A stretch of DNA of 64,000 bases from positions 992,001-1,056,000 of the forward strand of contig OZ037836.1 in assembly GCA_964035575.1 (NCBI GenBank). The letters run 5' to 3'. Positions 40,676 to 63,589 of this stretch are shown one piece after another; the first letter of the stretch is position 1, and every line of letters begins with the position of its first letter. The notes under the pieces were generated by a model that searched no databases, was not told where the DNA came from, and worked only from the letters and a program-made list of their open reading frames with translations. This stretch comes from Rhynchopus sp. YZ270_cl-10. Lineage: Eukaryota. Made by a program: the position numbers and the translations under genes.

Positions 40676-40860
40676 CACCCAGGTGCCCAGGTACCCAGGT
40701 ACCCAGGTACCCAGGTACCCAGGTACCCAGGTACCCAGGTACCCAGGTACCCAGGTACCCAGGTACCCAGGTACCCAGGTACCCAGGTACCCAGGTACCC
40801 AGGTACCCAGGTACCCAGGTACCCAGGTACCCAGGTACCCAGGTACCCAGGTACCCAGGT
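40676..40860. repeat. (GGTACCCA)n microsatellite, ~23 copies
   Basis: 8-bp tandem repeat, read directly. Confidence 0.97.
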
Positions 40861-40889
40861 CCAGGTCCAGGAACAGGCACCCAGGAACA

Positions 40890-42145: not shown

Positions 42146-42343
42146 AAAAAAAAAAGGGTGGGGCAAGCATTTCATGATGAGATTATGAAGTGAACAACAA
42201 AAAAAAAGAGTGAATACCCAAATGAAAAAAAAACAAAAAAATATTAGTGGAGCACACTCTAGGGTGGCTACACTAATACAACCAACTTTTCAAAAACAAA
42301 AAAACAAAATGCATGATCCTCACCCACTGTACCTGATCTGATA

Positions 42344-44261
42344 CTACGCATGACCTTCACAATGTGCTACCCATTCTTCAGAAGATTGAAACAACAAAAA
42401 ACATAATTTGCATCTGTTCTCTTCAAAAAAAAAATCTGGATGTTTCAACTCCATGTGCCTAGTCAAAGATTTGACTGTTTTGCTACACGGAGATATGGGA
42501 CAAACAGCACTGAGACTGCTGTCTTTCCTGCGATGTGTGTTGTCAATGTGAACCGCAAGAGAATTTGCGGCCATTGGCTTCTCACAAAAATCACACGCCG
42601 CAGTGCCGTCTCCCTCCGGTTCCTCATTCCCTTGTGAACCGTTCTCCTCGTCACACTCTGCAATTGCAGCAGCTTCAAACTCATTAAATTTGTTATCACT
42701 GGCTACAAAAAGCTCAAATTTTTCATCAGATGGAGGGTCTGTAGAACAGATGCACACTTTTGCGCGTCCTCTCCCTTTTGGAAAACGAAAAAGACAGTAT
42801 CCCCCCGAAAAAAAAACAAAACCACTTTTTTTCTCACTGAGTTGCGTGCACAAAACGTACGTCGCGAGTACCATCGCATGCGTGCTACTGATGCAGGGAC
42901 AGAGGATGATGTCCTTTTTCCCCTTTAGCCCTTCATCAGATAGGTCCGCTACCTTCCACGGGGTCTGCCTCGCCCTCCTCGCCACCTCTGAGGTTGCCTG
43001 AATTTCTTCGTAGGTGGCGACACTCGTGTTACTCGCACCACGCTTCCTCTGTCCGTTCTCCTGTTCCTCTGGCTCGTCGTTGTTGAGGAGAGGAACAGCA
43101 TCTAGCGGACTCCACCAGTGCTGCATGCTGTGGCAGTAGGTGCTGAGGGTGCTCTTGGGGGAGACGGTTTCCATGAGGCACAAGAAAACGTGGCCTGCGA
43201 TGCGTGCGCGAAGAAAGGGGAAGAGAGCCGCGGGCTCAGCCTTCGCATGGTGCCTCCAAGGGACGTCGCCGTACCTGAAGTTCGACAGCTCACTCAAAGA
43301 AATGAACATGAGTCTGTCGACGAGGGGGTAATCCGCCAGTTCAGCCATTTTGCGGATCACGTCCCGCATTTGGCTCCCTTTGGAGTTCCCCCCGCTCAGG
43401 TCGTACCTGAAGTGTCGGCACACACTGTCGAAGACACCAGTGGTCTGGGGCTTCATGACATCGCGCAAACTCAGCCATACCCTTGAGGTCGTGCAGGGGG
43501 GGGGCTGACGAAGTGAGCGTTTGGGGCTACTCCTGCGAGGAAAGAAGGAAAGCCGGCATCCGACATCTCTTGCAAGGAGAGGTGGGGAAAGCGGTGCGTC
43601 ATCAGCAGCCACTGCGACATTGGGATGGCACACATGGTACACTTGTGGCCCCTCCCCCCGCAACCCTTCACCTTACACCACTGGTCAAGGTGGTCACCAG
43701 TGATCTTCAGCACGAAGAACCGGCTCACGAGAGTCCGCGGTTTGCCCTTTCGCTCCACGTTCCTCATGACACTTGACCTGTGCACGAGTGCAATATCGTC
43801 AATGAGGGTGCCGTGCTCCCACACCGCATACTCCGCCTTCTTCAGGTCAACCACCGTCAATCCCCTGGTTGATAAGCCGGAGAGGGGGTCTATGATGCCC
43901 ACGGAGAAGCGCGTGCGTGCATTACTCGGTTTCATGCCGAATGGGGTGTAGCCATCACTGTACAGCACCAAGGCCAGCGCAGCTGACGACCTGATGTGGC
44001 CAAGAGCGACAAACTCTTCCTCCAAGTACTCGCATGTACCAAGCAACCCCCTGTGCAGCCTCTCCCTCGTCTCTTCGCGCTGCGGCTCCTCTATGACACG
44101 CATGCGTTTCGGGCTCAACCCCGCGGATTCCCCCGTTTCCTCACGATGACGCTTGTTCGCCTTGCCGAACCACCGCCGGGACGGGCCCTCGCCTTCTAGG
44201 TGCATGGCCTCCAGCGTTTCGGGGAAACTCTGACCTTGCCGTGACTGATCATTTTGTGACA
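42344..44261 (-). pseudogene. RAG1/Transib/CMC-like DDE transposase with three C-terminal C2H2 zinc fingers; frameshifted at ~43465-43505
   Basis: Ordered motifs LVLYSDGYTPF (D1), ITGDHLDQ (D2), GHKCTMC, PPLHDLKG (third frame, across the G9 run), STYCHSMQH and NDEPEEQEN (E); then CDFC..H..H, CPISPC..H..H and CKLC..H..H. Confidence 0.75.
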
Positions 44262-44307
44262 TACTGGGCACTGGAGGATAAATGTGATAAGAAAATGTGT
44301 ACAAATA

Positions 44308-44766
44308 CACGGTGGACTTCGGAATGACATTACGTGACGAGTGATGGGGGCAGAAACGGGGTGAAAATACGCGCGCTACGTCGTCATGACGGGGGCACCC
44401 CCACGTTATGACGACGTCATACCCAAATTTTCGTTGTTTTACCAAAGACAAGTCGATTTTTTGACCCATTTTTTTTTTTTTTGTTTGTTTTTTCCCAAAG
44501 TCGGGCTGGGGACACGATGGTGAAGTAAATGACTTGACTTGTGGTTTCACCGTTGGCTTACAACGGTGAAACCACAAGTCAAGTCATTTACTTCACCATC
44601 GTTGAGGTCATCAAGGAACGCACCCCCTCGTCATGATGACGTCATGATGACGTCATCATGTTGGCGACGTTCGTTGTAATTACGACAGCATGACGAAGTG
44701 TGCCCTCGTCATGATGCCGTAATTACGACGGCATCACTCCCGTAATGTCCTTACGAGCCCACTGTG
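44308..44766. mobile_element. Foldback/MITE with CACGGTGG / CCCACTGTG (Transib-like) ends and an internal 42-bp perfect hairpin
   Basis: Imperfect TIR CACGGTGGACTTCGGAATGACATTACG vs CGTAATGTCCTTACGAGCCCACTGTG; GTCATGAC/TGACGTCA repeats; stem 44514-44555 pairs with 44561-44602; no TSD seen. Confidence 0.55.
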
Positions 44767-45089
44767 AAGGTCAAAATGTTGTTCACCAAAAAAAAAAAAA
44801 AAAACCCTCCCTCTTTTTTTTTTTCTTTTGGATTCTCACTTGATCATGATGCATGGTACGAAAGCAAAAAGAGGGGGGGAAATCACATGTAAGGGACTCC
44901 ATCTTATCTTATTGTGTGAAACAGACTAACATGACAACGCTAGATACGACTGCCAACGCAGAACGGGGTCCCAAATGCAGTACCGACCCCCAGTGAACCG
45001 TATAAACGGTTCACTGGGGGGGGAGGTCCTCAGGGAAAATAGATAACAAGAAAACAACAAAGGATACCAGTAAAAATTTGAAAAAAAAA

Positions 45090-46241
45090 TCAGAGGTTTT
45101 CAACAACCTGGGTTTGCGGGTTTCCGGAAAAAGCATCCTGTGAAAGGACGGTGACACCGGCCGATGGTAACATCGACTCACCCTCACCCTCCTCCTCCTC
45201 CTCCTCCTCCTCTTCCCCTTCCCCGAGGTCCACCCCCATCAGATCGATGTACTTCTGGCGGTCCACCTTGCCCAGCCCCTGCCTGCTCTCCTTCACCTGC
45301 TCCATAACAATCTGTGTAGTTATTATTGGATAACAGTCAAAAAGTTGCAGGAAAAGGTACCAAGTAACACACCTTTACCTCCCACAAGGCAATCTGCCCG
45401 TCAACAGGAGCGCAGGAAATGGCCTTGTCCTCACGGGATGGGCGGGGCAAGAAGTAATCCACCCTGTACACACCCGAGGGATGGGTTGAGCCTTCGGGCA
45501 CTCTGCGCGTACACTGCAGGTCAACCTTATTCGCATTCACAAGGTATGCGATGTCGACAAAGCACCCTTCGATGCGCATTGTGTGCGTGTCGTTTTCGAC
45601 AGGAAGAGGGGTGAGGGTGGGGAAAGTCTTCTCCTGCAGAGTCGACAGCTGCGCCTTAGGCTTCGCTGAGTAGAGCGAGCACATATCACAGTCCCTGTAC
45701 TTAGGGAGGATGCTCTCCCTCACTCGCACGTAGAGTTTGTTCTTGGCAGAGGTTTCTGCTTTCCACCCAGTGATCATGAAAGAACGAAGACACACACCAT
45801 ACAGCTGCACAAGGTGCTTGCCGTCTGTTGCCCTCTTGGCGACCTATGTATACAAATGAATGTAGTAGCATAGTGTAATACCAAATAAGGGAGCATACCT
45901 TATAGTATGATGGCAACCTTTTGTCTTCAGTCGCGGCGTCGTGTTGGGTCACGCTGAGCTTCGTGTCCAGTCCCGGGTACACGTTCACCAATGCGTTCAT
46001 CATGGTGGGGGAGTTGGGGTGCACAGTGGCGCCGGTGATTCTCGCATATAAAAGTTTTAGATGCGAGAGCACCATCACGTTCCCTGCTTGCGACTGGGTG
46101 TACAGTGATAAAGTCAGTCTCCGGTGTATTCGCCTTTGCCGGTTGTGGTTGTCCATTCTGGTCCTCCCTTTTCCTTTTTCCAGACGCAGTCGGTGCCGCT
46201 TTGGCTGCCGGTTTGGGTGCCGCTTTGGTTTTGGGTGCCAT
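45090..46241 (-). CDS. Unknown protein with basic N-terminus and acidic C-terminal tail; two short GT-AG introns and one apparent frameshift
   Basis: ATG at 46241 (MAPKTKAAPKP..KRKR); frame change near 46110. Intron 45844-45898 joins YYK|VAKR in frame; intron 45312-45372 (or -45378) joins in frame to IVMEQ..EEEEEEEEE..VVENL*. Confidence 0.65.
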
Positions 46242-47230
46242 TTTTTGATGTGTTTGAGTCTGAGAAAAGGAAATGGGGAGACAGACACAAAAGCAAAAAA
46301 GGGAAGGCTCGTTTTTCCATTTATTGTTACAGTAACAATTGTTACTTTGTAACAATAAATGAAAAAACGAGCCTTCCCAAAGAGGCAAAAAAAATCACTT
46401 TCCCATCCCGCCGGGGTATACGCAACCGTACTGTATTCCGCAAACCCGTAAACCCTTGCGGGTTTACGGGTTTGCGGAATACATTATTGTTCTTTTTTTT
46501 ACTGGTATCCTTTTGTTGCTTTCTTGTTCTTTCTTTTATCCCCCAAAAACCATCATATCTCTTACCGATCGCCCTGGTTTGGACCAACAAAAAAAAAAAA
46601 AACCCCCCCCAAAGAAAATGAGTTTTAATGAAGTTTTCGCTTAAAATCCATTAAAACCCCCTTGACCGGCAGTCGGGGCTCGTGTTGTCATGCTAGTCTG
46701 TTCCCCCCCCACACCAAAAAAATGATGTGCAAAAATCATGTGTTTTGACCATGTCCGGGTACACCAAATACACACATCTCTGAACAAGCCTATACCCAGT
46801 AGTAGGCAACAAGGCCATTTTTTGACCAAAAAATAATTTCCCCCTCCCAAAAAAATTGGGCGTGGTAGGTCATAAAATGGCCCAAAAAATCCAAAGAAAA
46901 CCTCAGATTGACCAAACAAGGAAAAAAATTTTCAAGTCAAATTTTCAGTCAAAATACGGCTATTTTGGTTATAGCATGTGTACTGTAGTGACTATACAAG
47001 GCGATTTTCGGCCAAAAAAATTTTTTTGGCCGAAAAAAAAAATTTTTTTTTCGGCCCAAAAAAAATTTTTTTTTTTTTTTTTTTTTTTTTTGCATTTTTT
47101 TTGCATTTTTTTTTTTTTTTTTTTTTTTTTGCATTTTTGGATTTTTTTTCATGCTTTTTCTGTAACCTCTCTCTCTTTTACGGCAGGTGACCGGTTGAGG
47201 CGATACTTCCGGACTGAGGAAGGGCATTCT

Positions 47231-49177
47231 TTTACTTTTTTATTTGCCTGGAGGGGGTACGGGGCGGCCTCTTGTAAGTTTGTTTTTGTTTGTAGTCTTT
47301 TGTTGGTTTAGGGGCGTGGCTGACGACACGATGAACCTCCTTGGTTCAAAGCTGTTAACGACGTCTAGCCAGGCCTGGCTGTACACTCTAGTCTATAAAA
47401 GGGGGAGGGGGGGGGAAACGAAAAAGGAAAAGTAGAAAAATGGTGACTCTAGTGTCTATGTGGCGTTTCGACGACGCGTCTGCACAAGGCTCCGCAGGCG
47501 ATTGTACAGCTCCGCCGACTTCTTCAGCTCCCACTGGTTCAACATCGGCTTCACTGCATTCCTCCACCGCCCACAGTACTCGAAAGCCTCCGCTGCCGTC
47601 AGTCCGTACCCACCTTGGGAGCTGAAATGAGTGGTATTGGGATAGAACAGTCCCTCCCACTCTTCGGCCGTCTCTGGAGTAGGCAAGTCAAACCCGGGGC
47701 AGGGCGCTATGTCATTCCATACCGGCACAGAGTTCGGGAGGGCTGGTGGTGCGGATTGGGAGCCACTCTCCGATGTTGTGTCTGTGCTGGGGACCGATGA
47801 TGCGCCTGGCAAAGGAACTGCGGGTTGGGACCTGTCGAGGAGGTCCGCGGAGTACGCACTGCCTTGCGAGGCGTCGTGTGGCTGTTCACTCGTGTCAGCG
47901 CGGGAGTGAGCTGCCTCAGAGGACGTGAATACGGGGGGGGCTGGGGTGGTGTTTGAATAGCCACTCCCCGTATGTGTCCTGGTGGGCTGCACCTGCGATG
48001 AAGCGGTTGGCGGAACAGCGTGGGGCTGCACTCTCGTGTTGGAGGTTGAGGGAGCTGCTGCAACAGGCGCGGGTACGGGGAGGGCTGAGTGGGTGTTGGA
48101 ATAGCCACTCTCCGTATGTGCCTGATGCTGCTGAGACGCGGCCGATCCAGCAAGCGACTGCGACGAGGTGCCAGGTTGGACAGGGGTCTGCTCTACGTGG
48201 GGCGCACACGAAGTAGGGAGGGCTGGTGCTGTGTTAGAGTAGCCACTCTCTGCTTCGGACTTCGCAAGGTTACGGAGCCGGCCGCCAAGCATCGAAGCCC
48301 ACTGCTGGTCCCCCCCACTCAAACTCGGCTTCATTGCCTCCCACCAACGAGTGAAGCACACTAGAGCGTTAGCAGCTGACATAGACGCGCCCTCGGGATC
48401 GGCGTGAGTGGCAACGGGGTAGAACAAAACCCGCCACTCCTCTGGGGTCGCTGGGATCGGCCTGTTGTACCCAGGGCAGGGCGCCAAGTCGTTCCAGAAA
48501 ATCACATTGCTCGGGCACGGGAGGGCTGAATTGGTGTTGGAGTAGCCACTCGCCGTAGGTGTCTGATGTTGCTGAGGCTCGTCTGAAGCAGAGGGCGCTT
48601 GCGAGGTGTTAGGCTGGGGAACAGCGTGCGCGACGTGGGGCACCGAGGGCGCGGAGGCGGCAGGGAGGGCTGATTGTGTGGTAGAGTAGCCGCTCTCCTG
48701 TCCCTTGACGTCCGATGGTGCCTGTCTCATGGTGTCGTGTAGCTGTGCCCTCCTCATCTTCGCAGCCTCCGTGCTCTTAGCCACCCGGACTTGTTTCTGA
48801 TCCTTCACCAGGCTGTTGCTCTTGGGGTCCGTCGTCACCGTGCGCTCCGTCTTCTTCACAGAGCGCGGGTTGCTGGCGACCGGTAGGGCACGAGGGCAAG
48901 TTGAACCTAGGGGAAGACACGACAGGCACGCCCACCCCACGCACTCCCGACACTGCCAGTGGCGTTCACTGCCAAGAACAGCAGCCAAGCACAACTCGCA
49001 TCGCCCGAAATCCGCCCTCGTTTCGTCCTGAGGATAGTCCAGCAGAGCCTCGCGAGACACACATGTGAGCGACGGCAGGCGCGGGTTCGGCTCTTGCATC
49101 AGGAGGTACTGCGTCAGCTTCTCGGGGATGGTGACCGGTGTGAAGTGGCCCGCTACGTGACCGTCGTGGGCCAGCGT
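47231..49177 (-). mobile_element. 5'-truncated non-LTR retroelement copy (OTU C-terminal end, zinc finger, ESGYSNT repeats); ORF 47456-49177
   Basis: Divergent paralog of 60700-62254 including the 3' UTR ending CCAGGCAAATAAAAAA; starts at LAHDGHVAGHFTPV. Confidence 0.75.
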
Positions 49178-49610
49178 TTTTTTTGGGTCCGACTGTCGGA
49201 CCCCAGAGTCCGACAGACGGACCCCAGAGTCCGACAGTCGGACCCCCTGAGTCCGACTGTCGGACTCCAGAGTCCGACTGTCGGACTCAGGGGGTCCGAC
49301 TGTCGGACTCAGGGGGTAAGTCTGTTTTCGACACACTCTAAGCACGACAGACTGCACCGTGCAAAATAAAAAAAAAATAAATTTTTTTTTCTGGGGCGCG
49401 AGAAATTAGTAGGATCCGCCCGTCAACTCACACAGACGTTTAATGACCTCAGGGTGCAATATTTTTTTGCAAAAAGGCGCGGAATGGCATTTCCGGAGCG
49501 ATCTGAAAAATTCCGGGGTCGGAGAATTTTTTTAGTGAAAAAATAGTCACTTTAAATTGGCTCCATGGTTGGTCACAAGTGATACGCAGTTTCGGAGAAT
49601 GAGTGATATA

Positions 49611-51396
49611 CACAGGGTTATAGTCAGATCTATACACTCATTGTATATACAATTGTCAATTGTACATACAATTGTATAGAAATTGTATAGATCTGACTAT
49701 TTGATGTACAATCCCAACTTTTTTTATAGTCAGATCTATACAATTTATGTACAATCCCAGTACACAGGTTTGGCCAGGTTTCTGGCTATTGCCTCCCACC
49801 TACCCACACACACACCCACCCCTACAGGACTATACACAAAAAAATGGAAATTGGGTTTCGCACACCCGATTCTTCTCAGAAGTCAGTCACTGCTATTGCC
49901 ATTTAACCCAGGGAGCATAGCTAGTGCAAGAAATTCGACCGGAAACCTTCCGGAAAGTCTGTCCTCTGCTTGCAGAGGACTAGACACAAGAAAATATTGC
50001 GTTCCCCCAGAAAACCAGCGCACATTTCACACTCCTTGTGGGTGGTCTTGTTGCCTTTTCGTCATAGTAATTTTGGCCCAGGCATGCTCTTAAAGCATGA
50101 CAATTTAGTGTGTATGGGGCAGGGTGTTGTTTTGTTCTGAATTCTCTTTGTTATAACATCTAAGTCAATCGCGGGTGGTGGTTTGTGTAGCGTGAGGCAC
50201 TCTTTTTAGCAAACTTCCTGCGGCTGCTAAAGTGTTATTTCTTCGGATTTAACAACGTACAGCGTAACATAGTGGTTTAGCCTGGTCGACACAACCTTTG
50301 ATAGATACGGGATAACCAACCCCCTTCGACCCCTTGTGGGTTCACTGAACAAGCCCTAGTGGTAGTTAAACGCGATTGACATTTACATTCCTAGAGATGA
50401 AAGAACAAGACAACACTTCTGTACCCGCGCATCAAAATTGTGGAAAACTTTGCACCCCAAACACCCTCAACAACGCCCGCCAAAAGGCGCCCCTTGTTAC
50501 TGGGAGTTGGTTCTCATTGATACCTGCACAGCGGGCATTCCTCTGAGTCCAACGCATGTTTGGCCTGTCTGCGGCGTTGTACTTCAGGTACACGAAGACG
50601 GGGTCTGGTGGTAAATTTTGCGTAGTGTCGCATTCCCTCATGTGTGGGTCACTCACACTTGCGGTCATGTGCCACTGCGTGGGTTTGGGAATTTGGGTAC
50701 CTGGGTACAGGATATTTGTTGTGAAAGACATCTTCCACCATGCATTGAGGAGGGTAAGACAGTGCTCGCATTTTACTTGAAATCATTACAACATTTAACT
50801 TCTCCACGGGGGTCTTGGGCCGTTCACTCGGTTATACCTTGACTAGCGGCAGAGGCCTTTTAGGACTCTATAACTCCGATATTCCCGAACGGAGGCACAC
50901 TTTGTGTGTTACTACGACCTGGCAATTTCCAGCAGTAGGTTAAGTAATGTTTTCTTGTGAATTGGTGGATCATTATCTCCTCAGTGCATGAATGCCCCAC
51001 GCGACGGACACTTTTGTGTTTGTCAAGTGGACTGTCTGGTCACTTTTCAGTGACTGGCGGGTTGGCTGTGGTTGCTCTTTCACGACTTTTATCCTTGTAT
51101 CCAGTGTACCGTGTACCTGGGTACCTGGGTACCTGGGTACCTGGGTATGGCGTGTACAATCTCCCTCGAGTGTACAATCCAAAAATTGTATAGATCTGAC
51201 TTTTGTATAGTCAAATCTATACAATTTGTGTACGACCTAGTGTATACTGGGATTGTACATAAATTGTATAGATCTGACTATAAAAAAAGTTGGGATTGTA
51301 CATCAAATAGTCAGATCTATACAATTTCTATACAATTGTATGTACAATTGACAATTGTATATACAATGAGTGTATAGATCTGACTATAACCCTGTG
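49611..51396. mobile_element. 1.79-kb non-autonomous element with ~155-bp near-perfect TIRs
   Basis: TA|CACAGGGTTATAGTCAGATCTATAC ... GTATAGATCTGACTATAACCCTGTG|TA; interior is the core repeat plus (GGGTACCT)n. Confidence 0.85.
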
Positions 51397-51448
51397 TATA
51401 TGTGTATACATTTGACTTTCACCCAAAAAAATAAAAAATGAAACACCG

Positions 51449-51593
51449 GAGGCACGGCACTTTTGTGGAATTTTGTGGAATTTTGTGGAATTTTGTGGAA
51501 TTTCAAAAACTCGACTTCTACTTTTTCCCCTTATAAAAAAATTCCACAAAATTCCACAAAATTCCACAAAATTCCACAAAAGTGCCGTGCCTC
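51449..51593. mobile_element. Small foldback element made of inverted (TTTTGTGGAA)4 arrays
   Basis: GAGGCACGGCAC(TTTTGTGGAA)4 ... (TTCCACAAAA)4GTGCCGTGCCTC; no TSD seen. Confidence 0.7.
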
Positions 51594-52610
51594 TTTCAAG
51601 AAAAAAAAATTTTTTTTTTCGACATCACAAAATTTTTCCCACAGAAAAAAATTTTTTTTTTTTGCACATGTCTGCACCAAAAATGCAAATAAAGCCAGAA
51701 TTTTGATGTTTTGAGCATCTAGAATTTATTCCACGGCTATTTTGTGTATAAAATACATAGATGGAACGCCCATATGGGCAGCTGCTAATATGGGCACCCC
51801 AAAAAACAGGATATGGGCAATATGGGCGCCCATATTGCCCATATGGGCGGATATGGGCAAAAAAGGCGCCCATATCCGCCCATATCCCGCCCATATTTTA
51901 CATATTTTAATGCGCCCATATCGGGAAAAAGCGCCCATATTTTGGATATGGGCGCCCATATCCAAAATATGGGCGCCCATTTTTTTTTTTTTTTTTTTTA
52001 CACAAGTGTTTTTGAGGCCTGCTCACTACACCCTATGTACCCTTCTGGGACCAAAAAGTCAAAAAAAGCAAGAATTGGGCTGTTTTGAGCATCTAGAGTT
52101 TATTCCCCGGCCATTTTCTGCACCACCAGTGCATTTTGTATGGGCCAGCGCCTTGTCGAAAAATCGAAAAATCTCAAAAAAAAAAAAATCCCAAATTTTT
52201 TTTCACAAGTGTTTTTGAGGCCTGCTCACTACACCTATGTACCCTTCTGGGACCAAAAAGTCAAAAAAAGCAAGAATTGGGCTGTTTTGAGCATCTAGAG
52301 TTTATTCCCCGGCCATTTTCTGCACCACCAGTGCATTTTGTATGGGCCAGCGCCTTGTCAAAAAATCAAAAAATCTCAAAAAAAAATTTTTTTTTGTCGG
52401 GAAAATTTCGACCCCTGAGTTGGGGTTTTGGGCACCAAAAAGTGCAAAAAAACGCAAAAATCGGATGTTTTGACGATCTGGGGGTAAACCATATGCACTA
52501 TTACAGTTTCCTGGTGGTCCGGGTTTTGAGTCTTTTATAGTGTTTTATTTTTTCTTTTTTCCGAGAGACCAAAAAATAGGGAGGGGATGGCAAAAATCTT
52601 GTGCTTTATT

Positions 52611-53010
52611 CGAATAACGAATTGAGAGAACACAACTTTTAGCTTTATTTGCTTTTACTTTTACTTTTACTTTACTCATATCAACAAGAGGATACCAACA
52701 AAAAGAAAACATCAAGAGAACACACCGACCAGCATATCAGCTGGTCACGGGAACCTTTAAAAGGTTTCCACTTTTGTTGTCAGGCCAGTGTCCTAAACGA
52801 TGCTGCCACACCCTGAGGGGGAGGTGTGCTGTCTGTAAACCCTGTGTGGCAACAACGGGGAGGTGACCTCCGTATATCGGCAACCCGCACGTCCTAGATG
52901 TGAAAAACGGCACCAGCCGGGACACAGCCCCGGGTTTACTCTGGATAGAACAAAAAAGAGCGGCCACACTGCCTCGGCAGCGCTAAAGAGACGAGAGTGA
53001 ATACCAAGGG

Positions 53011-53048
<38 letters not shown>
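52611..53048 (-). mobile_element. Short non-coding insertion, possible SINE-like retroposon
   Basis: Present in the left palindrome arm and absent from the right arm (58050-58075); A38 run at one end and (GTAAAA)4 on the minus strand at the other. Confidence 0.4.
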
Positions 53049-53050
<2 letters not shown>

Positions 53051-53129
53051 GGAACGGGCTAGACGAATGTGGTGTAAGATGTGTAAGTGTAAGAGGTGTA
53101 AATTGCAACGTGTAAGATGTGTAAACAAC

Positions 53130-55430
53130 TTACCAATCAAACTCGTCGTTTTTTGCTGTGCTGTACCCCCCAAACGCCACGTCATCTTCACTCACCCGCA
53201 ATTTCCCTTGCACGTCGCCATTTATCAGGAGCTGGGTGCGCATACAAAAATTTCCAACAGTGGTGCGTGCACGTTTTTTGTTGCACGAGAGCTTGTACGA
53301 CGTCGAAAATCCACGACTCAACAAGTGTCACGCAAGGTGATATGTCCAAGACGCAGAACACAAATTTTTTCAGCACCTCGTACGAATCGTCCAGCATTTT
53401 CCAGAGATCCCGAACAGGATATCCCTGAGTGATGACATTGGGGTCATCAAGCCAGCGGAGCAGGGCACTCTCGACCTCGTCAGTGAACCAGGGCCCCAAC
53501 AAAAACACTGGGACCGAACCCCGCCTTCAAGAGCGCCACAGCACTTTGACCAGTTAACTTCAAAAGGCCTGGAACAAGGAGACTTCCGGCGGAAAATTGG
53601 GGGAAATTGGGGGGAAATTTGGGGGAAATTTTTGTGCTTGCGAAAAAAATTTCCAAGTTCGGTTCCGAGTTCCTTTGCCCCAGTATGCTCCATTGAGCTC
53701 AGTTCTGTGGTCATCTTCTCGAACGAAGTATGCAGGGTGAGGATAGGGGGCACTGTGCCGGACGGATCCGCCACACCGTCCATGAGCTTTGAGGGGACAT
53801 CCATGACCTCGGAGCACGCCACCACTTGCTCCCACAGAGACACAGTGTCCGTGTCATGCAGCAACTGCACGAGTGCGCGGATGCTCTTGCAGACAGATGC
53901 TCCATACTTCTGTCTCTCTTCTGCGCAGAAGGCCATAATAGCCAATCTACGCTCGGACACATGCCTCAAGAGTTTGGTGAGGGAGTTCCAGCGTGTGCCC
54001 TTGGAGTCCACCATAGACTTCGCCTTGGGCTCTGCAGTTTCTGTTTGGTGTAAGTCACCCAACAGTTTCTCCGTCTCCTCCAGAGTACCGGGGGTTATCG
54101 AAGGGTAGGTCACAAAAAATTTTGCAAGCATAGTTGACAAAGTATCAGGCAGGACAAAACTTGAAGCACCAAGGATGTTCTGAAACTCCTGGTAAGCCTT
54201 CTCGTGTGGCCCGTTTGCAGATGGCGCAGCCAAATTCTGTGCTTTTTGCGCGCTGATGTACCTCGACGCCCTAGTTGGGGCGTTAAAAAATGCTTTCCGC
54301 AGCAACACCACCAACTCCCACACCGCTGGATAGTGTTTTTTTACAAAATTTTTCATGATATTGTGTATCCCGTGACCCACACACAAGAAGATCAAGAGTT
54401 CTGTTGCTGCTTCAGAGGCTCCCTGAGATAGAAAAAAGAAAAGTATAAATAATAAATAATAAATAAATAAAAGAACCGAAAAGACACAAAACCACACCTT
54501 AATATTGTACGTCGCGCTGTCCATCACTACATGCCTCATGTTGGGGTACTTCTCTGTGACGTGTTTGAGTATTATTTTGATGACTTCAAAGTCTGTCGTC
54601 TCTCCGGCTGCTATCATGTAGTTGTCGAACCACAACTCAGAGGGCAGTGCCCTCATCCCTATCACATGGTGTTTTGCCATGAGGCCGCCGTCCAATCCGA
54701 ATCCTGTGGAAGCACGCAGCTGTGGTGCCAAGAAGTCGAGGTGTCCTGAAAAATTGAGGTAAGCTTCTTGCCCACTCTTCGAAGGCGGGGAACTCGGCGT
54801 CATACGTGACCCTGACGAAGCTGGCCATCATTGCTGCTTCACCGTCTGTGATGCCGGAATAGAGGCAGGCTCGCGCAAACAGAGCGTTCCTCTCATTTTT
54901 CGTCGACGGTGCAGTAGTACGGTTGGTTTTTTTGGCCTTCGTGTGGGGGTTCTGGTGCTGTAGGGACTTGGTATGCTGCTTGAGCGCGGTGTAGTTGTGC
55001 GGCTGTCACACCTGGTTGCACCTCGTGTCGAAGATCAGCTTCTCATTTTGATCTTCGCCGGCCGCGATGAACATGTCTCGGTCTTTTTCTGGGAGATCGG
55101 ACACAGTTTTTATGGTGTATCCCAACTGCTCCAGCTCGAGGCGATTATCGCGAAACACCTCTGAGGCTGAGCTGCTGCCTTTGCGCGACCGCTTTTTGGG
55201 GGTGTCGTCTTTCTTTTTTGGAGTGAGCTTTTCCTCCTGTTTTTTTTCCTGCTCCTCCTTCACCTTCGAGGCCAGCGAGTCGGCGGTCTTCTTGGTGCCG
55301 ACTTTCAGCTTTTTTGTTGGGGGCTCCTTGTTTTCGCAAGAGTCTTCGTCGACATCTTTACCTTTTGCAGCCTGGGTCGGTTGTTGTTGTTCTGATTTGT
55401 CTGCCGACTTCCTCTTGCTTGTTTTTGCTT
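53130..55430 (-). pseudogene. Inverted, frameshifted copy of the hAT transposase lacking the start codon
   Basis: Reverse complement of 55620-57896 with indels near 54970-54930, 54780-54745, 53620, 53495, 53317 and 53150; intron 54423-54497. Confidence 0.9.
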
Positions 55431-55601
55431 TTGGTTATCGATAAATGTGTTATGTCTGTTGGTAGGGCGGGTTTTTGAAATTTAGTGAGTTGTCCCCAGA
55501 TACTCCCTGTTTGGTTTTCGAGTGCTTTTTGTACTTCACACTACCTACTAATTTCAAAAACCCGCCCTACTAACAGACATAACACATTTGTCATTCTCAC
55601 C

Positions 55602-57896
55602 ATGCCAAAACCAAGAGGAAAAACAAGCAAGAGGAAGTCGGCAGACAAATCAGAACAACAACAACCGACCCAGGCTGCAAAAGGTAAAGATGTCGACGAA
55701 GACTCTTGCGAAAACAAGGAGCCCCCAACAAAAAAGCTGAAAGTCGGCACCAAGAAGACCGCCGACTCGCTGGCCTCGAAGGTGAAGGAGGAGCAGGAAA
55801 AAAAACAGGAGGAAAAGCTCACTCCAAAAAAGAAAGACGACACCCCCAAAAAGCGGTCGCGCAAAGGCAGCAGCTCAGCCTCAGAGGTGTTTCGCGATAA
55901 TCGCCTCGAGCTGGAGCAGTTGGGATACACCATAAAAACTGTGTCCGATCTCCCAGAAAAAGACCGAGACATGTTCATCGCGGCCGGCGAAGATCAAAAT
56001 GAGAAGCTGATCTTCGACACGAGGTGCAACCAGGTGCGACAGCCGCACAACTACACCGCGCTCAAGCAGCATGCCACTACCCTACAGCACCAGAACCCCC
56101 ACACGAAGGCCAAAACCAACCGTACTACTGCACCCTCGACGAAAAATGAGAGGAACGCTCTGTTTGCGCGAGCCTGCCTCTATTCCGGCATCACAGACGG
56201 TGAAGCAGCAATGATGGCCAGCTTCGTCAGGGTCGCGTATGACGCCGAGTTCCCCGCCTTCGAAAGAGTGAGCAAGAAGCTTCCTGTTATTTTTCAGGAC
56301 GACCTCGACTTCTTGGCACCACAGCTGCGTGCTTCCACAGGATTCGGATTGGACGGCGGCCTCATGGCAAAACACCATGTGATAGGGATGAGGGCACTGC
56401 CCTCTGAGTTGTGGTTCGACAACTACATGATAGCAGCCGGAGAGACGACAGACTTTGAAGTCATCAAAATAATACTCAAACACGTCACAGAGAAGTACCC
56501 CAACATGAGGCATGTAGTGATGGACAGCGCGACGTACAATATTAAGGTGTGGTTTTGTGTCTTTTCGGTTCTTTTATTTTTATTTTTCCTTTTCTTTTTT
56601 CTATCTCAGGGAGCCTCTGAAGCAGCAACAGAACTCTTGATCTTCTTGTGTGTGGGTCACGGGATACACAATATCATGAAAAATTTTGTAAAAAAACACT
56701 ATCCAGCGGTGTGGGAGTTGGTGGTGTTGCTGCGGAAAGCATTTTTTAACGCCCCAACTAGGGCGTCGAGGTACATCAGCGCGCAAAAAGCACAGAATTT
56801 GGCTGCGCCATCTGCAAACGGGCCACACGAGAAGGCTTACCAGGAGTTTCAGAACATCCTTGGTGCTTCAAGTTTTGTCCTGCCTGATACTTTGTCAACT
56901 ATGCTTGCAAAATTTTTTGTGACCTACCCTTCGATAACCCCCGGTACTCTGGAGGAGACGGAGAAACTGTTGGGTGACTTACACCAAACAGAAACTGCAG
57001 AGCCCAAGGCGAAGTCTATGGTGGACTCCAAGGGCACACGCTGGAACTCCCTCACCAAACTCTTGAGGCATGTGTCCGAGCGTAGATTGGCTATTATGGC
57101 CTTCTGCGCAGAAGAGAGACAGAAGTATGGAGCATCTGTCTGCAAGAGCATCCGCGCACTCGTGCAGTTGCTGCATGACACGGACACTGTGTCTCTGTGG
57201 GAGCAAGTGGTGGCGTGCTCCGAGGTCATGGATGTCCCCTCAAAGCTCATGGACGGTGTGGCGGATCCGTCCGGCACAGTGCCCCCTATCCTCACCCTGC
57301 ATACTTCGTTCGAGAAGATGACCACAGAACTGAGCTCAATGGAGCTTACTGGGGCAAAGGAACTCGGAACCGAACTTGGAAATTTTTTTCGCAAGCACAA
57401 AAATTTCCCCCAATTTTCCGCCGGAAGTCTCCTTGTTCCAGGCCTTTTGAAGTTAACTGGTCAAAGTGCTGTGGCGCCCTTGAAGGCGGGGTTCGGTCCC
57501 AGTGTTTTTGTTGGAGGTGCAGGTGCCTGGTTCACTGACGAGGTCGAGAGTGCCCTGCTCCGCTGGCTTGATGACCCCACTGTCATCACTCAGGGATATC
57601 CTGTTCGGGATCTCTGGAAAATGCTGGACGATTCGTACGAGGTGCTGAAAAAATTTGTGTTCTGCGTCTTGGACATATCACCTTGCGTGACACTTGTTGA
57701 TCGTGGATTTTCGACGTCGTACAAGCTCTCGTGCAACAAAAAACGTGCACGCACCACTGTTGGAAATTTTTGTATGCGCACCCAGCTCCTGATAAATGGC
57801 GACGTGCAAGGGAAATTGCGGGTGAGTGAAGATGACGTGGCGTTTGGGGGGTACAGCACAGGCGAGGAGACAGAGGACGACGATTTTAATTGGTAA
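55602..57896 (+). CDS. hAT-superfamily transposase with one 63-nt intron (56547-56609)
   Basis: FGLDGG (D1), VVMDSATYN (D2), CVGHGIHN (CxxH), GTRWNS, and VDRGFS at the ERxFS position; degenerate N-terminal Zn-finger-like DTRC..H..H; GT..polypyrimidine..CAG intron. Confidence 0.8.
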   Translation: MPKPRGKTSKRKSADKSEQQQPTQAAKGKDVDEDSCENKEPPTKKLKVGTKKTADSLASKVKEEQEKKQEEKLTPKKKDDTPKKRSRKGSSSASEVFRDNRLELEQLGYTIKTVSDLPEKDRDMFIAAGEDQNEKLIFDTRCNQVRQPHNYTALKQHATTLQHQNPHTKAKTNRTTAPSTKNERNALFARACLYSGITDGEAAMMASFVRVAYDAEFPAFERVSKKLPVIFQDDLDFLAPQLRASTGFGLDGGLMAKHHVIGMRALPSELWFDNYMIAAGETTDFEVIKIILKHVTEKYPNMRHVVMDSATYNIKVWFCVFSVLLFLFFLFFFLSQGASEAATELLIFLCVGHGIHNIMKNFVKKHYPAVWELVVLLRKAFFNAPTRASRYISAQKAQNLAAPSANGPHEKAYQEFQNILGASSFVLPDTLSTMLAKFFVTYPSITPGTLEETEKLLGDLHQTETAEPKAKSMVDSKGTRWNSLTKLLRHVSERRLAIMAFCAEERQKYGASVCKSIRALVQLLHDTDTVSLWEQVVACSEVMDVPSKLMDGVADPSGTVPPILTLHTSFEKMTTELSSMELTGAKELGTELGNFFRKHKNFPQFSAGSLLVPGLLKLTGQSAVAPLKAGFGPSVFVGGAGAWFTDEVESALLRWLDDPTVITQGYPVRDLWKMLDDSYEVLKKFVFCVLDISPCVTLVDRGFSTSYKLSCNKKRARTTVGNFCMRTQLLINGDVQGKLRVSEDDVAFGGYSTGEETEDDDFNW

Positions 57897-59666
57897 GTTG
57901 TTTACACATCTTACACGTTGCAACGTCTTCCACGTTGCAATTTACACCTCTTACACGTTACACGTCTTACACGTTACACCTCTTCCACGTTACACCTACA
58001 CGTTACACGTCTTACACGTTACACGTCGTACACATTCGTCTAGCCCGTTGCACTTTTTTTTTATCGATTGATTAATAAAGCACAAGATTTTTGCCATCCC
58101 CTCCCTATTTTTTGGTCTCTCGGAAGCAAGGAACCCCACAATAAATAAAACACCCCCCCTTAAAAAATAGAGCGTAGTGTGCATCCTCGGGTGTCTACAC
58201 TACACTACGATTTCTAAAGCTACAACACCTCTACTTTTTTTGAAATGAGGGCAGTCTCTTAACTGCAATCTCCAAAACCCCTTCTTAGCATGTAGCCGTG
58301 TATGGTGTATAGTACCTTGATGCGGACTACCCCTTTTAAGGCTATTTTCTTCCTAAAAGTTGCTCTGAAGGGTTGAGGACGCAGGGACGTCTTCCGCAGT
58401 ACAAAGGCTTCGGCCAACATTGAGTACAGACCTGAATTCTCCCACCTGGTGGGTTTACTCGGCGAATGTCGACACAACAAAAAAAAGTTCAAAGGACTTT
58501 GTTGGTCGCCTTACTCATTTGGATCACAACGGTATGTATATGCTACTCATTACAATGTTAGCCACTTCTATTGCCAGACACCGGGGCAAATAGTAAGTGC
58601 AAGAAAACTGCTTTTTGGAAACCAGGAAAACATGGTGGACACTCCACTCCACGTGCGGGCATGTTTGGCACTTCTGCATGCGTGCAGTATCCAAATGTGT
58701 CCCCGTGGGACCAAAGTGATAAAGATGTGTCCACTGTGTACAGGGAAAAAACTTTGCGCTCCCCCGGACAGTGCACAATTCAACACCCCTTGTGGGTGGT
58801 CTTGTTGCCTTTTGGAACAACAACAATTTTTTTTCACGTTGTTGTATTTTGGCCAGGCATGCTCTTGAAAGCATGACAATTTGATTGCGTATGGACAAAG
58901 CAAAGAACCAAGTATGAATTCTGAGTTGAAGTCTGAGAGATGTTGTGGGAAGGGGAGTTCGCTCCTTTCAACGATGACCTCGTTGTTCTTCATAGGCTTG
59001 TCTTAACCGACCACATAAATAAAATTGTGCCGGCCTCGAAGGAATTCTAAGCACACCCGCGTGGCAGCTAAACACGACTCTCTCTCAATTCAACAAAGAA
59101 GGAATACTTGGTAATTTGTGGAGCACCCGTGCATGAAAATTGTAAAACTTTGCGCCCCACGTTGCCCCAGAACACGGCTTCCTTAGAACCGGTTCTGGCC
59201 CAACGTGGACTGCCTGCTCACCCTTTCCCGGGTGGCTGGCGGTTTTTGGCATAATTTTCGGGCTCCGGCCCCAGCCCCCATTATTAAGATTGGGCGCCCA
59301 TATTGAAATATGGGCGCCCATATCCGAAATATGGGCCACCTTAAAAAATATGGGCCCGTAGCCCATATTTGAAAATGTGCCCACATCCGCCCATATGTGC
59401 CCATATCCGCCCAAATTTACGCCCATATGCCCATATGGGCATATGGGCACATTTTTTTCGCCCATATTGCCCATATTTTTTGGTGCCCATATGGGCGTTC
59501 CATCTATGAAAATACCCACCCTGTACAGTTTGTATGGGCCAGCGCCTTGTCAAAAAAAATCGAAAAATCTCAAAAAAAAAAAAAAAAATTTTTTTTTTCA
59601 CAAGTGTTTTTGAGGCCTGCTCACTACACCCTAGGCACCCTTCTGGGACCAAAAAGTCAAAAAAAG

Positions 59667-62254
59667 ACTGTGTGGTTGCGAACCCCCTGGCCTCTTCGCA
59701 TGTACAGGGGGCGGCGCGAGCGGTGGGGCACGCAGCGGTCAAGCATCAGTCCTGGAAGCGCGATAAACATGGCAAAGCTTGCAGGACAGCACGCATTTCC
59801 TTCTCCGCTTTTGCGGCCGAGGTCTTTGGGGGGCTGGGGCCGGAAGCAGCCACGCTGTGGCGGCACCTGAACAAGATGGCCGCGGAGCGTGCGGACGGGG
59901 ACAAGGTCTTGGCCTCGGCCAAATGGAATGAGCGTCTGGCCGTGTGTGTACAGCGGGAGGTGGGTGCCACGCTGTTGAAGCGGGGGGCCTTGTGTTTCGG
60001 CCTTGGGGGTGATCGTGATGCAGTGCCGCCTGCTCCTGTCGAACGTACCCCAGACTACTACGTCACACCTGACGACGCCCCAGACGATCGCTTCCCTACA
60101 TACGTGGACGACCACCTGTACCGGCTCGCTGAGCAAGACTGTGAGATTGTTGAGGAACCAACCCCTGATCCACGAAGTGCGGCTGATGTTGATGAGGCTA
60201 CTGCGGCGATGGAGAGGTGGTTACAGCGGCAGGCGCGCAAGAACCCTGTTCATCAGTCTTCCGTCGTCGTGGAAGTAGCTCCCTGCGAGGACCCAGCTGC
60301 GGCCTATGAGAAGCTGCATGAGGGTGACTCCCCTCCTGCCCTAGCGGTGCAGCTGTCCGCCGTCGGATGCTCCACTCCCGCGAACTTCCGCTACACCGTG
60401 GGTGACTGCTGTTTCGACGCTATGGCACACTTGAGCGGGAAGAACGCGGGGTCCCTGAGGCAGGTTGCGGTTGCACAGGTAGTCCAAGACGCGGACCTGG
60501 CGGCACGGGCGGAACCGAATGTCGCCGTGTGGTCGCGGCGGATGCTCATCGCTGGGTGTGATCGATCGGATACCTGGGCTGACACTGTGACCGTTGCCGG
60601 CCTTGCACGCGCTCTGAACTCGCTGGTGGTGGTGTTTGTGGGTGGTCATAAGCCTTCGCTCTTCACCCCCTCGAGTGCGACGAATTACCAGAATGTGTTT
60701 GCGCTGGCTCACGACGGCCGCACGGTGGGCCACTTCACGCCGGTCACCATTCCGGAGAAACTGAGGCAGTACTTCCTGATGCAGCCTCCGACGCCGCGCC
60801 TGCCGTCGCTCACTTGTGTGTCCCGCGTGGCAATGCTGGACTACCCTCAGGACGGAACGAGAGAGGATTTCGGGAAATGTGAGGTGTGCGGGTCTGCTGT
60901 CCTCGGCAGTGAGCAGCACTGGCAGTGCGGGGAGTGCGTGGCTTGGGCGTGCCGGCAGTGTCGTCCCCTCAGCTGCTCTTCCTGCCCACGGGCTCCAGCG
61001 GTTGTCAGCTTACCGAGTTCCTCAGGTGTCACCGCGCGCACACATCCAGCAGCGGACCCCAAGAGTAATGACTTGTTGCAGGAGCAGCGGGATAAACGCG
61101 TGGCCACGAGTGGGGCTACTATCAAGAAGAACAGGGACCAGCTTCGTGCCCGGTTGCGTAAGGCTCCGACGGATGCCATGGATGTAGAGAGTGGCTATTC
61201 AAACACCACCCCAGCCCTCTCTACCTCCTCCGCGCCCCAGGTCGTGCAGACCCCTGTCCAACCTGGCACTTCGTCGCAGGCGCACTCTGCATCGGACGAG
61301 TCTCAGCAGCATCAGACAAATACGGAGAGTGGCTATTACAACACCCACGCAGCCCTCCCCGTACCCGCGTCTGATGTGGCTGTTCCCTCATCCACCAGCA
61401 CGAGAGAGCAGCCTCACGCTGTTCCGCAGGTCGCTACGTCGCAGGCGCAGCCATCAAGGACCCATACGGAGAGTGGCTATTCAAACACCACCCCAGCCCT
61501 CCCCGTATACACGTCCTCTGAGGCAGCTCACTCTCACGCTGACACGAGTGAGCAGCCACACGTCGCCTCGCAAGACAGTGCGTACTCCGCGGACCTCCTG
61601 GGCGGGTCCCAGCACGCAGTTCCCTTGCCTGGCGCAACCTCGGTCCCCAGCACAGACACACCATCGGAGAGTGGCTACCAATCCGCACCACCAGCCCTCC
61701 CGAACCCTGTGCCGGTATGGAATGACATAGCGCCCTGCCCCGGGTTTGACTTGCCTATTCCAGAGACCGCGGATGAGTGGGAGGGGTTGTTCTATCCCAC
61801 TACCACTCATTTCAGCTCCCAAGGCGGGGACTCTATGACGGCGGCGGAGGCTTTCGAGTACTGTGGGCGGTGGAGGACTGCAGTGAGGCCGATGTTGAGT
61901 CAGGAGGAGCTGAGGAAGGCGTCGGCGCTGTGCAATCGCCTGAGGAGTCTTGTGCAGACGCGCCTTCGATCCGCCGCATAGACTTTAGAGACTTCTTTTT
62001 ACTTTTTCTCCCCTCTCCCCCCCCTTCTCCCCTTTCTTCTTCTTTTTTGGCTATTTTTATTTCGTTCACATAGCCTAGATTCGGACCTGTTTTCAGGCCG
62101 ACCGTGTACAGCCGGGTAGAGCTTGACAACGCCAACAGCTGTGGTCCAAGGAGGTCCCCAGTGTTGTCTGCCAATCCCCTTAACCCAACAAAAGACTACA
62201 ATATAAAAACAATCTAGACAAAGCCGCCCCCATCCCCGTCCAGGCAAAATAAAA
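59667..62254 (+). mobile_element. 5'-truncated CRE/SLACS-like non-LTR retrotransposon; ORF to 61981 with RLE C-terminus, OTU-like protease, Cys-rich finger and repeats
   Basis: RLE-like AA..K..K..C..FSAFAAEVFGGLGPEA..W.ERLAVCVQR; OTU-like GDCCFDA..LR..WAD..GHF; 3' poly(A). Inserted in the repeat GTCAAAAAAAG^CA(A/T)GAATTGGGC (empty copies at ~52060 and ~52260) with AAAAAAAG duplicated. Confidence 0.75.
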
Positions 62255-63589
62255 AAAAAAAGCATGAATTGGGCTGTTTTGAGCATCTAGAGTTTATTCC
62301 CCAGCCATTTTCTGTACCGCCAGTGCACTTTGTATGGGCCAGCGCCTTGTCAAAAAATCGAAAAATCTCAAAAAAAAAAATTTTTTTTTCGGGAAAATTT
62401 CGACCACTGAGGTGGGTCTTTGGGCACCAAAAAATGCAAAAAAAATGCAAAAATCGGGTGTTTTGACCATCTGTGGTTACACAAAACACACTTCTGTGTA
62501 CAAGCCTACACCAATACAGTGGTAATACAAGGCGATTTTTGACCAAAAAAAAAATATTTTTTTTCGCCCAAAATCGGGCGTGGTACGTCATAAAATGGCC
62601 CAAAATATCCAAGGAAAACCTTAGATTGGGCAAATTATGAAAAAAATTTTCAAGTCAAATTTTCAACCAAAATACGGTCATTTTGTTCACACAGTGATTC
62701 TACGTCATGCTAGCTTCCTGTGCAGAACTCCAGCAATTCACCAATGCCGGCATCTATCTTTCCATTATCGCCATTGCACTTCGTGTGTTACCAACGTGCT
62801 CAAGAAATGGCGTGCTGTCACACTCCAACCAGAGTATCGAACCCGTACGTACATAACGGAGATCCACGAGCCCACCCAAAGGCGGAGGGTCTAGCCGAAG
62901 GCGGACGAGCTAGCCCAATCCGGACGAGCGAGCCTCATAAAGCACACCAGCTCCAATCTGACGGGGAACTTCGAGCCTCCAAGCCCAGAGAAAGAACCTG
63001 GCCACCGGAGGGCCCTAACGGCCCGACGAGGAGGCGCCCCATAGGGCGCTGGGGCCAAGGGACTTAAGTCGCCCTAACGCTTCGCTAAGTACCTGGAAAA
63101 ATCCCTAAGGAAAAAAGTGGAAAAAAAGTGTCTCAAAATTGACATCTATTTTTTGACCTTTTTGCTGGGTAGGTTTGGGTCGGTCCGACCTGACCCTACT
63201 GAGTCGGTTTAAGTCGGATTGGTAGCCTTGTCCCCTATCATCTCCCCTCTTCCCCCTTTTAATACAAGGGCAGTCTCGTGACTATGTAACCTACAAAACC
63301 ACCATTTAAGCACCTCAGTATCATACCCCATCTAAGCACCCTCAACCCTCATCCACACAGATTCGCCTCCTTAAACCTGCAAACCTGCAAACCTGCAAAC
63401 CTTCTAACACCTCAGAGGGCAAGGCCCGCAAACCCTTATTCCAATGGAAGAATTTTTCAAAAATTCTCTATACTTCCTATGACTGGACCCAACTCCCCTC
63501 ACTATTTTTCCCTAAAAAAACGCAAAAAACGCCCAAAAAATTCTGCCAAAAATATCAAAAATATCAAAAATGCGCATTTTTGCCGTGCC

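What the first reader, a model, noticed from the sequence alone, without database searches (positions are those of the whole stretch)
52540..58155. Giant palindrome of head-to-head hAT transposase genes inside one element
Seen: arms ~53050-55485 and ~55546-58060 (extending to 52540/58155) are inverted copies around a ~60-bp spacer. The right gene is open; the left lacks its ATG and has frameshifts; a single TIR pair with a TSD encloses both. Established: inverted transposon duplications such as maize Mu killer make hairpin RNA that silences the family. Inference: a fold-back-derived silencer locus or a mobile palindromic element.
Basis: partly seen in the sequence, partly recalled or inferred. 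Interest (0 to 1): 0.7.

Follow-up and report, generated by a model that had tools for sequence, protein, structure and literature searches.

The report
Palindromic hAT transposon, one arm dead
A single jumping gene in a protist genome carries its transposase gene twice, back to back like a mirror image, with one copy broken; it likely arose by a DNA-repair accident and would make silencing hairpin RNA if the host reads through it, and its enzyme belongs to a divergent group with an unusual predicted active-site residue.

Summary
The palindrome is real. One 7,753-bp element (51756-59508; 25-bp perfect TIRs, 6-bp duplication AAAATA) holds two head-to-head copies of a transposase gene, 99% identical in the core, around a 67-bp spacer. 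Short-read contigs from 4 of 4 runs laid (2 studies) hold the exact 252-nt centre junction at about half the depth of the arms, so it is no chimeric read, and the palindrome looks single-copy. The right gene is open; the left has lost its ATG and has a stop and frameshifts. The protein folds like Hermes (Z 20.4) but has Asp where Hermes has catalytic E572, as do 6 of 6 relatives covering that site, including a multi-copy Diplonema papillatum family. The polarity is the reverse of Mu killer and Ac killer: here 5' ends face inward, so a hairpin needs read-through from outside. If the host is a diplonemid with polycistronic transcription (inferred), minus-strand read-through would give a natural stem-loop against the only near-identical transposase found. 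No RNA data were available, so silencing is untested; an inert decaying duplicate is nearly as likely.

The parts
51750..51755 (+). Left target site duplication AAAATA (6 bp)
   Evidence: contigs lacking the element join 51756 to the sequence after 59515 in 4 of 4 runs (table 7)
51756..51983 (+). Left end: 25-bp TIR plus subterminal ATATGGGC motif array
   Evidence: 17 motifs; a different copy's contig starts to match exactly at 51756 (record 1)
51991..52506 (+). Piece of the high-copy repeat family that also forms the target site (filler or nested insertion)
   Evidence: 89-96% to 59520-59666 and 91-95% to 62255-62482; very high summed depth
52540..55482 (-). Left arm: dead inverted copy of the transposase gene with 5' UTR, intron and 3' UTR
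   Evidence: no ATG, R146*, four frameshift sites
52612..53048 (+). Poly(A)-tailed high-copy insert in the left arm's 3' UTR, likely a short retroposon
   Evidence: absent from the right arm; high summed depth over about 52680-53084; no clean TSD; no Rfam match
53370..54803 (-). Residual 477-aa ORF of the left arm, lacking the N-terminal zinc-finger region and the C-terminal catalytic segment
55483..55549 (.). 67-bp spacer (loop); 5-bp micro inverted repeat TAGTG/CACTA at its edges; pyrimidine-rich on plus
   Evidence: spanned by the 252-nt contig
55550..58155 (+). Right arm
55602..57896 (+). Open hAT-type transposase gene, 764 aa unspliced (743 aa if spliced): BED-like C139-H, D251, D309, CxxH 350-353, W481, D700
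56547..56609 (+). 63-bp GT-AG intron (75 bp in the left arm); shows the duplication was DNA-level
   Evidence: relatives lack exactly this segment
58156..59290 (+). Internal 3' region, with no counterpart on the left
   Evidence: no blastn match to 51984-52539
59291..59508 (-). Right end: subterminal motif array plus 25-bp TIR; 165 of 242 columns identical to the left end
59509..59514 (+). Right target site duplication AAAATA

Best explanation
This is one hAT-type DNA transposon whose transposase gene lies twice, head to head, with the left copy broken; the second copy likely arose by fold-back repair of a break inside the element, and host read-through would likely turn the locus into a hairpin RNA against its own family. 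Shown: the structure, its presence in short-read contigs, the two different element ends, the dead left arm, the Hermes-like fold. Inferred, step 1 (about 0.75): a break just upstream of the gene primed fold-back synthesis near the spacer, copied about 2.6 kb through the 3' UTR, and rejoined the left end by way of an abundant repeat; the intron in both arms makes it a DNA event. Inferred, step 2 (about 0.65): the host is a diplonemid-like protist with long one-way transcription units. Inferred, step 3 (untested): the unit here runs on the minus strand, so one RNA would carry the intact gene antisense, the loop, then the dead copy sense, and pair over about 2.4 kb; Dicer products would target the only near-identical transposase found and so quiet the non-autonomous copies that share the ends.
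For: Junction contig in 4 of 4 runs, 2 studies, depth about half the arms: X1 104 vs 178-222, X2 73 vs 130-191. Ends differ beyond the TIR (165 of 242) and inner flanks are unrelated, so it is one element, not two fused. Only P0002 and P0003 (the two arms) are close protein hits (cluster of 1). 1909 of 2275 coding 21-mers have a perfect partner in the left arm; the centre folds as a stem-loop, z -36.8. Nearest named relatives are Diplonema papillatum proteins. That species has one-way gene clusters, SL trans-splicing, Dicer, Argonaute/Piwi and RdRP genes (PMC10161547, passages). 5 of 5 recognisable host-gene ORFs in the window are on the minus strand. Stem-loop transgenes, built in both divergent and convergent orientation, are the RNAi tool in Leishmania braziliensis (PMC2965760, passages). 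Fold-back priming at breaks near short inverted repeats makes inverted duplications in yeast (PMC10622511, abstract).
Against: No transcript or small RNA evidence was obtained. The five host ORFs are only three gene families (chance of one strand 0.25, hand arithmetic), the nearest lies 14 kb away, and on the right only a 245-bp gene-end fragment is in the window. [quoted passage not shown] Host identity is inferred; the Atlas put the cyclase-like neighbour nearest to eukaryotic clusters whose commonest phylum is Heterolobosea and gave nothing for PEMT. The spacer micro-repeat is only 5 bp. A silencer would be expected to keep its arms paired, yet the left arm has taken an insert and 11 indels. 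Depth ratios are noisy in X3 and X4.
Confidence: 0.45

Rival explanations
1. Same fold-back origin, but the locus is transcriptionally inert: a decaying duplicate in a repeat-rich block, with no RNA function.
For: The element sits among nested repeats and retroelement pieces. The left arm shows undirected decay: isolated substitutions give a stop and three missense changes, plus an insert. Differences are clustered (32 events in 12 clusters, random mean 21.4, P 5e-5), as expected from repeated break repair.
Against: All 6 disabling sites are on one arm (two-sided 0.03 by hand arithmetic), which plain decay does not predict. Host genes of one strand flank the region.
Confidence: 0.35
2. Selection removed the expressed copy: with genes on both strands the element would be expressed in either orientation, and the copy lying in the host's transcription sense (left) was knocked out while the antisense copy survived untouched.
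For: 6 of 6 disabling sites fall in the minus-strand copy, the strand of all 5 host ORFs. The right arm has changed in non-coding parts (3' UTR repeat gains) but kept its frame.
Against: One locus only. An error-prone new strand, or copying from an already dead copy, gives the same asymmetry. The left copy's upstream region is purine-rich (pyrimidine 0.42 vs 0.62), so it may never have been processed into mRNA; host genes gave 0.49-0.60, so this test is weak.
Confidence: 0.1
3. The left arm makes a truncated 477-aa transposase that poisons the multimer, as a protein repressor.
For: An ORF of 477 aa remains at 54803-53370 with D251, D309, CxxH and TRWNS.
Against: It lacks the zinc finger and the following N-terminal region, starts in a shifted frame, and looks like a chance remnant between frameshifts.
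Confidence: 0.04
4. The palindrome is a mobile unit that has transposed in this form.
For: TIRs are perfect over 25 bp, the TSD is perfect and the right gene is open.
Against: Centre junction and the left inner junction (52480-52588) are at single-copy depth in X1 (104, 97); no other near-identical protein.
Confidence: 0.05
5. Assembly artefact from a fold-back chimeric long read.
For: Long-read fold-back chimeras exist (own knowledge); one of the two studies may be the source of the assembly.
Against: Identical 252-nt junction in 4 of 4 runs from 2 studies; arms at about twice junction depth in X1 and X2; both alleles of the 54713-54837 frameshift cluster present (X2 95 vs 99); both alleles at 55008 in X3 and X4.
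Confidence: 0.01

Closest known systems
Ac killer alleles p1-ww-id1 and id4 of maize (bioRxiv 10.1101/2020.01.07.897926, passages read)
   Same: hAT superfamily; natural inverted duplication of 2-4 kb of transposon sequence; dsRNA can come from a host promoter reading through.
   Different: Ack arms are the 5' terminal parts of Ac with promoters outward, made by alternative transposition together with large chromosomal duplications. Here whole genes face outward from the centre, both native ends and a clean TSD are kept, and dsRNA is not shown.
Mu killer of maize (PMC3440606, passages read)
   Same: Inverted duplication of a transposase gene inside a TIR-bounded element.
   Different: Mutator, not hAT; TIRA at both ends; only 1.3 kb of mudrA per arm; 5' ends outward; no intact gene. 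That paper also disputes the flanking read-through hairpin model.
Hermes transposase (PDB 4D1Q, 2BW3, 8EDG)
   Same: Fold (Foldseek E 6e-7; VIA Z 20.4, rmsd 5.6, 382 aligned; next family 10.1), D...D, CxxH, TRWNS, W..YP.L..S..FS motifs.
   Different: 11-15% identity; Asp aligns to catalytic E572; 6-bp rather than 8-bp duplication.
Repbase hAT6 group (as summarised in PMC12730594, passages read)
   Same: hAT with a 6-bp target site duplication.
   Different: hAT6 is placed among Blackjack and animal hATs; no tree was built here, so kinship is untested.
Diplonema papillatum hypothetical proteins DIPPA_32336 and relatives
   Same: About 22% identical homologue with the same motifs and D at the third site (TRVDAVFS); one 772-aa sequence on 9 contigs.
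   Different: Element ends and arrangement could not be fetched; palindromic forms there are unknown.

Membership tests
hAT superfamily | Hermes-like RNase H fold with helical insertion | tested here: met
   Model pLDDT 71; Hermes ranks 1-10 by Foldseek and Z 18.4-20.4 vs 10.1 next; family profile hits only Hermes below E 0.7.
hAT superfamily | First two catalytic Asp, CxxH and RW motifs | tested here: met
   D251, D309, C350-H353, TRWNS 479-483; conserved in relatives that cover them; D309, CxxH and TRWNS align to Hermes.
hAT superfamily (canonical DDE form) | Third catalytic residue is Glu (Hermes E572) | tested here: not met
   D700 aligns to the E of SERTFS; Asp in 6 of 6 distinct proteins covering the site. 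Model pLDDT is under 50 there, so placement rests on sequence. Filed as a divergent D-D-D lineage, not as canonical hAT.
hAT superfamily | C-terminal dimerisation region PF05699 and BED finger PF02892 | tested here: inconclusive
   No Pfam hit for P0001; PF05699 above cut-off in 1 of 10 relatives (P0007), below cut-off in others; BED only at E 0.06-0.12.
hAT superfamily | Short TIRs with subterminal motif arrays | tested here: met
   25-bp TIR; 33 of the window's 35 ATATGGGC motifs lie in the two ends.
hAT superfamily (usual form) | 8-bp target site duplication | tested here: not met
   6 bp, one insertion only; 5-, 6- and 7-bp hAT groups exist.
hAT6 | Phylogenetic placement with Blackjack-type hATs | not tested
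   No hAT6 sequences were available from the tools.
Killer loci (Muk, Ack) | Long inverted duplication of transposon sequence | tested here: met
   About 2.4 kb, 99% in the core.
Killer loci (Muk, Ack) | Two copies of the 5' end facing inward, gene truncated | tested here: not met
   Ends differ, genes are whole and 5' ends are central (vs 40, 41).
Killer loci (Muk, Ack) | dsRNA, siRNA and heritable silencing in trans | not testable with these tools
   No RNA run was laid.

The most novel reading that the evidence does not exclude
A promoter-free, self-made killer: in a protist with polycistronic transcription, the last transposase locus of a hAT family folded into a palindrome that the host's one-way transcription turns into a stem-loop, shutting down the family; and the enzyme represents an undescribed, recently mobile D-D-D lineage of hAT transposases with 6-bp duplications in diplonemids.
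Probability: 0.25. Interest if true: 0.72.

Novelty: new variant of a known kind. Interest (0 to 1): 0.5.

Why it matters
How a genome first recognises an active transposon is known from few natural cases, chiefly maize Mu killer and Ac killer. A case of opposite polarity in a protist whose transcription ignores gene promoters would show that any internal fold-back can start silencing there, and it can be tested with one small-RNA library. Apart from that, Hermes is inactive when E572 is changed to Ala or Cys (PMC2533014, passages); a natural, multi-copy lineage with Asp there is a ready probe of hAT active-site geometry and of the link to TSD length. If the locus is silent, what remains is a real but ordinary rearranged transposon plus that lineage.

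Tried and rejected
No whole genome is held, so copy number rests on contig depth and protein searches. Metagenome scans found nothing: TIR pattern 0 matches, protein 0 of 59 candidate stretches; the alignment was too divergent to seed a scan. Word-seeded protein searches gave only the two arms. Single-sequence PDB search found nothing. Rfam: 24 matches, all below gathering score, hairpin look-alikes. Earlier scan notes: nothing on this genome, sequence or structure. A 7-bp or 8-bp TSD reading (ends ATAG) was rejected because it needs an extra base or a mismatch, and a second copy's contig begins to match at 51756. Two elements fused at their 5' ends was rejected. Retrocopy origin was rejected (intron in both arms). 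Mosaic alleles in single contigs were not taken as gene conversion, since these contigs drop variants. A related 3' fragment seen in the runs has 5 synonymous of 11 listed changes: too few to call selection. Literature searches for a D-D-D hAT, a diplonemid hAT and a head-to-head transposase palindrome listed no description; Repbase Reports and subscription papers are not searched. 'hAT' had 0 hits in 7 supplementary files of PMC10161547, but 'polycistronic' also had 0, so the main supplementary PDF was probably not among the text read. The last script did not run, so catalytic columns are read.
Full report
Observation. The window holds an inverted repeat of about 2.4 kb per arm around a 67-bp spacer at 55483-55549. 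Over the core, 2266 positions match, with 21 substitutions and 11 indels. Outer homology runs to 52540 and 58155, interrupted on the left by a 437-bp insert ending in 37 A. The right arm has an open frame, 55602-57896. The left arm has lost 14 nt including the ATG, carries a stop at codon 146 and frameshifts at four sites. One pair of 25-bp perfect TIRs at 51756 and 59508, flanked by AAAATA, encloses both.

Is it real? Twelve public runs were listed, 10 holding part of the stretch; the best 4, from 2 studies, were laid on the left half plus the centre. All 4 have a 252-nt contig across the spacer with no difference over the 229 nt laid. Its ends are those computed for a k=31 unitig if both arms exist (55397-55648). 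Arm contigs are about twice as deep as the junction in X1 (1.7-2.1 times) and X2 (1.8-2.6); X3 and X4 are noisier. Both alleles of the frameshift cluster (X2, 95 vs 99) and of the stop (X3, X4, about half each) are present, and an X1 contig carries the 22-nt insertion. Two lesions are backed only by contig ends. One study may be the source of the assembly. Contigs that lack the element join the two flanks with one AAAATA in 4 of 4 runs; they may be other copies of the target repeat. Another copy's contig begins to match exactly at 51756, fixing the end.

The protein. Pfam finds nothing. A full HMMER scan gave 12 hits: the two arms and 10 relatives at 25-34% identity; the named ones are Diplonema papillatum proteins. 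A profile of the family hits Hermes (E 2.5e-6), and the model matches Hermes by structure (E 6e-7; Z 20.4, rmsd 5.6, 382 aligned, next family 10.1). D251, D309, CxxH and TRWNS are in place. The third acidic residue is D700, aligned to the Glu of Hermes SERTFS. Asp is found in 6 of 6 distinct proteins that cover the site; the other hits are fragments or lack this part. The model is unreliable at that segment (pLDDT under 50). One 772-aa D. papillatum member is identical on 9 contigs, which suggests recent mobility with Asp, though that assembly may duplicate repeats. Relatives lack the 21 residues that a GT-AG intron at 56547-56609 would remove.

Anatomy and origin. The two ends share the TIR but only 165 of 242 columns beyond, and the inner flanks are unrelated: these are the left and right ends of one element, and the palindrome is internal. 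Both arms keep the intron, so the copy is DNA-level. The spacer is pyrimidine-rich on the plus strand and reads as the right gene's native upstream sequence (inference). The left arm ends about 80 bp past the AATAAA and meets a piece of the abundant repeat that also forms the target site. Fold-back priming at a break, then a switch to a repeat, fits this; the yeast mechanism is in PMC10622511 (abstract). Differences between arms are clustered (12 clusters, random mean 21.4, P 5e-5), as repeated repair would leave. All 6 disabling sites are on the left.

Copy number. Junction and left inner junction are at single-copy depth; the arms are at two copies in X1; only a diverged 3' fragment of the gene shows besides. 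Protein searches find no other close copy, although a neighbouring retroelement ORF has 17 cluster members on other contigs, so repeats of this assembly do appear there. Summed depth at 51786, in the left end, is about 50 times single-copy in all 4 runs; the tool warns this is no copy number, but it hints at many non-autonomous relatives. So this locus likely holds the family's only transposase.

How it would work. Head-to-head genes transcribed from the centre give two sense RNAs and no duplex. Mu killer and Ac killer have the reverse layout (PMC3440606 and 10.1101/2020.01.07.897926, passages). A hairpin here needs read-through. D. papillatum has one-way gene clusters, SL trans-splicing and a full RNAi gene set (PMC10161547, passages). 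The 5 recognisable host ORFs in the window are all on the minus strand, and a fragment of one such gene's end lies right of the element. If the unit spans the element, one RNA would carry the intact gene antisense, the loop and the dead copy sense; 1909 of 2275 coding 21-mers have a perfect partner. That is the layout of stem-loop RNAi constructs used in Leishmania (PMC2965760, passages). Against: three gene families only, the nearest 14 kb away, host identity inferred (searches did not settle it), and repeat-rich blocks separate clusters in D. papillatum. No RNA evidence was obtained.

Verdict. A real, single-copy, internally palindromic hAT-type element. Origin by fold-back about 0.75; working as a hairpin silencer about 0.35-0.45 given the host assumption; inert relic about 0.35. 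It works like a hAT and could work like a killer locus, but it is not a member of the Muk/Ack layout and not a canonical DDE, 8-bp hAT (6-bp groups exist: PMC12730594, passages). Searches listed no description of a D-D-D hAT, a diplonemid hAT or this layout; PMC11008031 (passages) only uses the general term DDD/E. Repbase was not searchable. New variant of a known kind; interest 0.5.

Noticed in passing
window 9865-25360: A second element with CATAGATGG ends (different subterminal motif) spans 15.5 kb and holds a 100%-identical 406-bp tandem array (12979-24159, about 27.5 units; may be an assembly-collapsed repeat). GAAACC lies at both flanks but 3 bp off on the left.
   Followed up: partly
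window 39819-51424: 11.6-kb element with 27-bp TIRs, 9-bp TSD AAAAAAATA and inner inverted arms of 1.35 kb at 88% (40804-42145 / 49797-51147); Mutator-like by TSD (label recalled). It holds ORFs 42344-44577 with a zinc-finger hit.
   Followed up: partly
window 59534-61981 (+) and 47456-49357 (-): Two inverted, 71-80% similar ORFs whose 17-member cluster includes long members with reverse transcriptase and a weak OTU protease hit: pieces of a retroelement family.
   Followed up: partly
window 51594-51755, 51991-52506, 59509-59666, 62255-62685: Very abundant A/T-tract repeat with about 200-bp subunits; contigs loop from 52506 back to 51605, so it may be a satellite.
   Followed up: partly
window 28517-29157: 641-bp element with CAGGTGTAGCC ends and 8-bp TSD GGGGGAGT, a likely canonical hAT-type MITE.
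   Followed up: no
window 3500-5894: 2.4-kb element with CAGGGTTTTTTCTAGG ends and a 6-bp duplication CCCCTT, a second 6-bp case.
   Followed up: no
window 25523-37583: Tandem duplication of a cyclase-like receptor gene and an LRR-ubiquitin gene; the first cyclase copy is broken.
   Followed up: no
window 51449-51593: Perfect 55-bp inverted repeat of TTTTGTGGAA units around 35 bp, just left of the target repeat.
   Followed up: no
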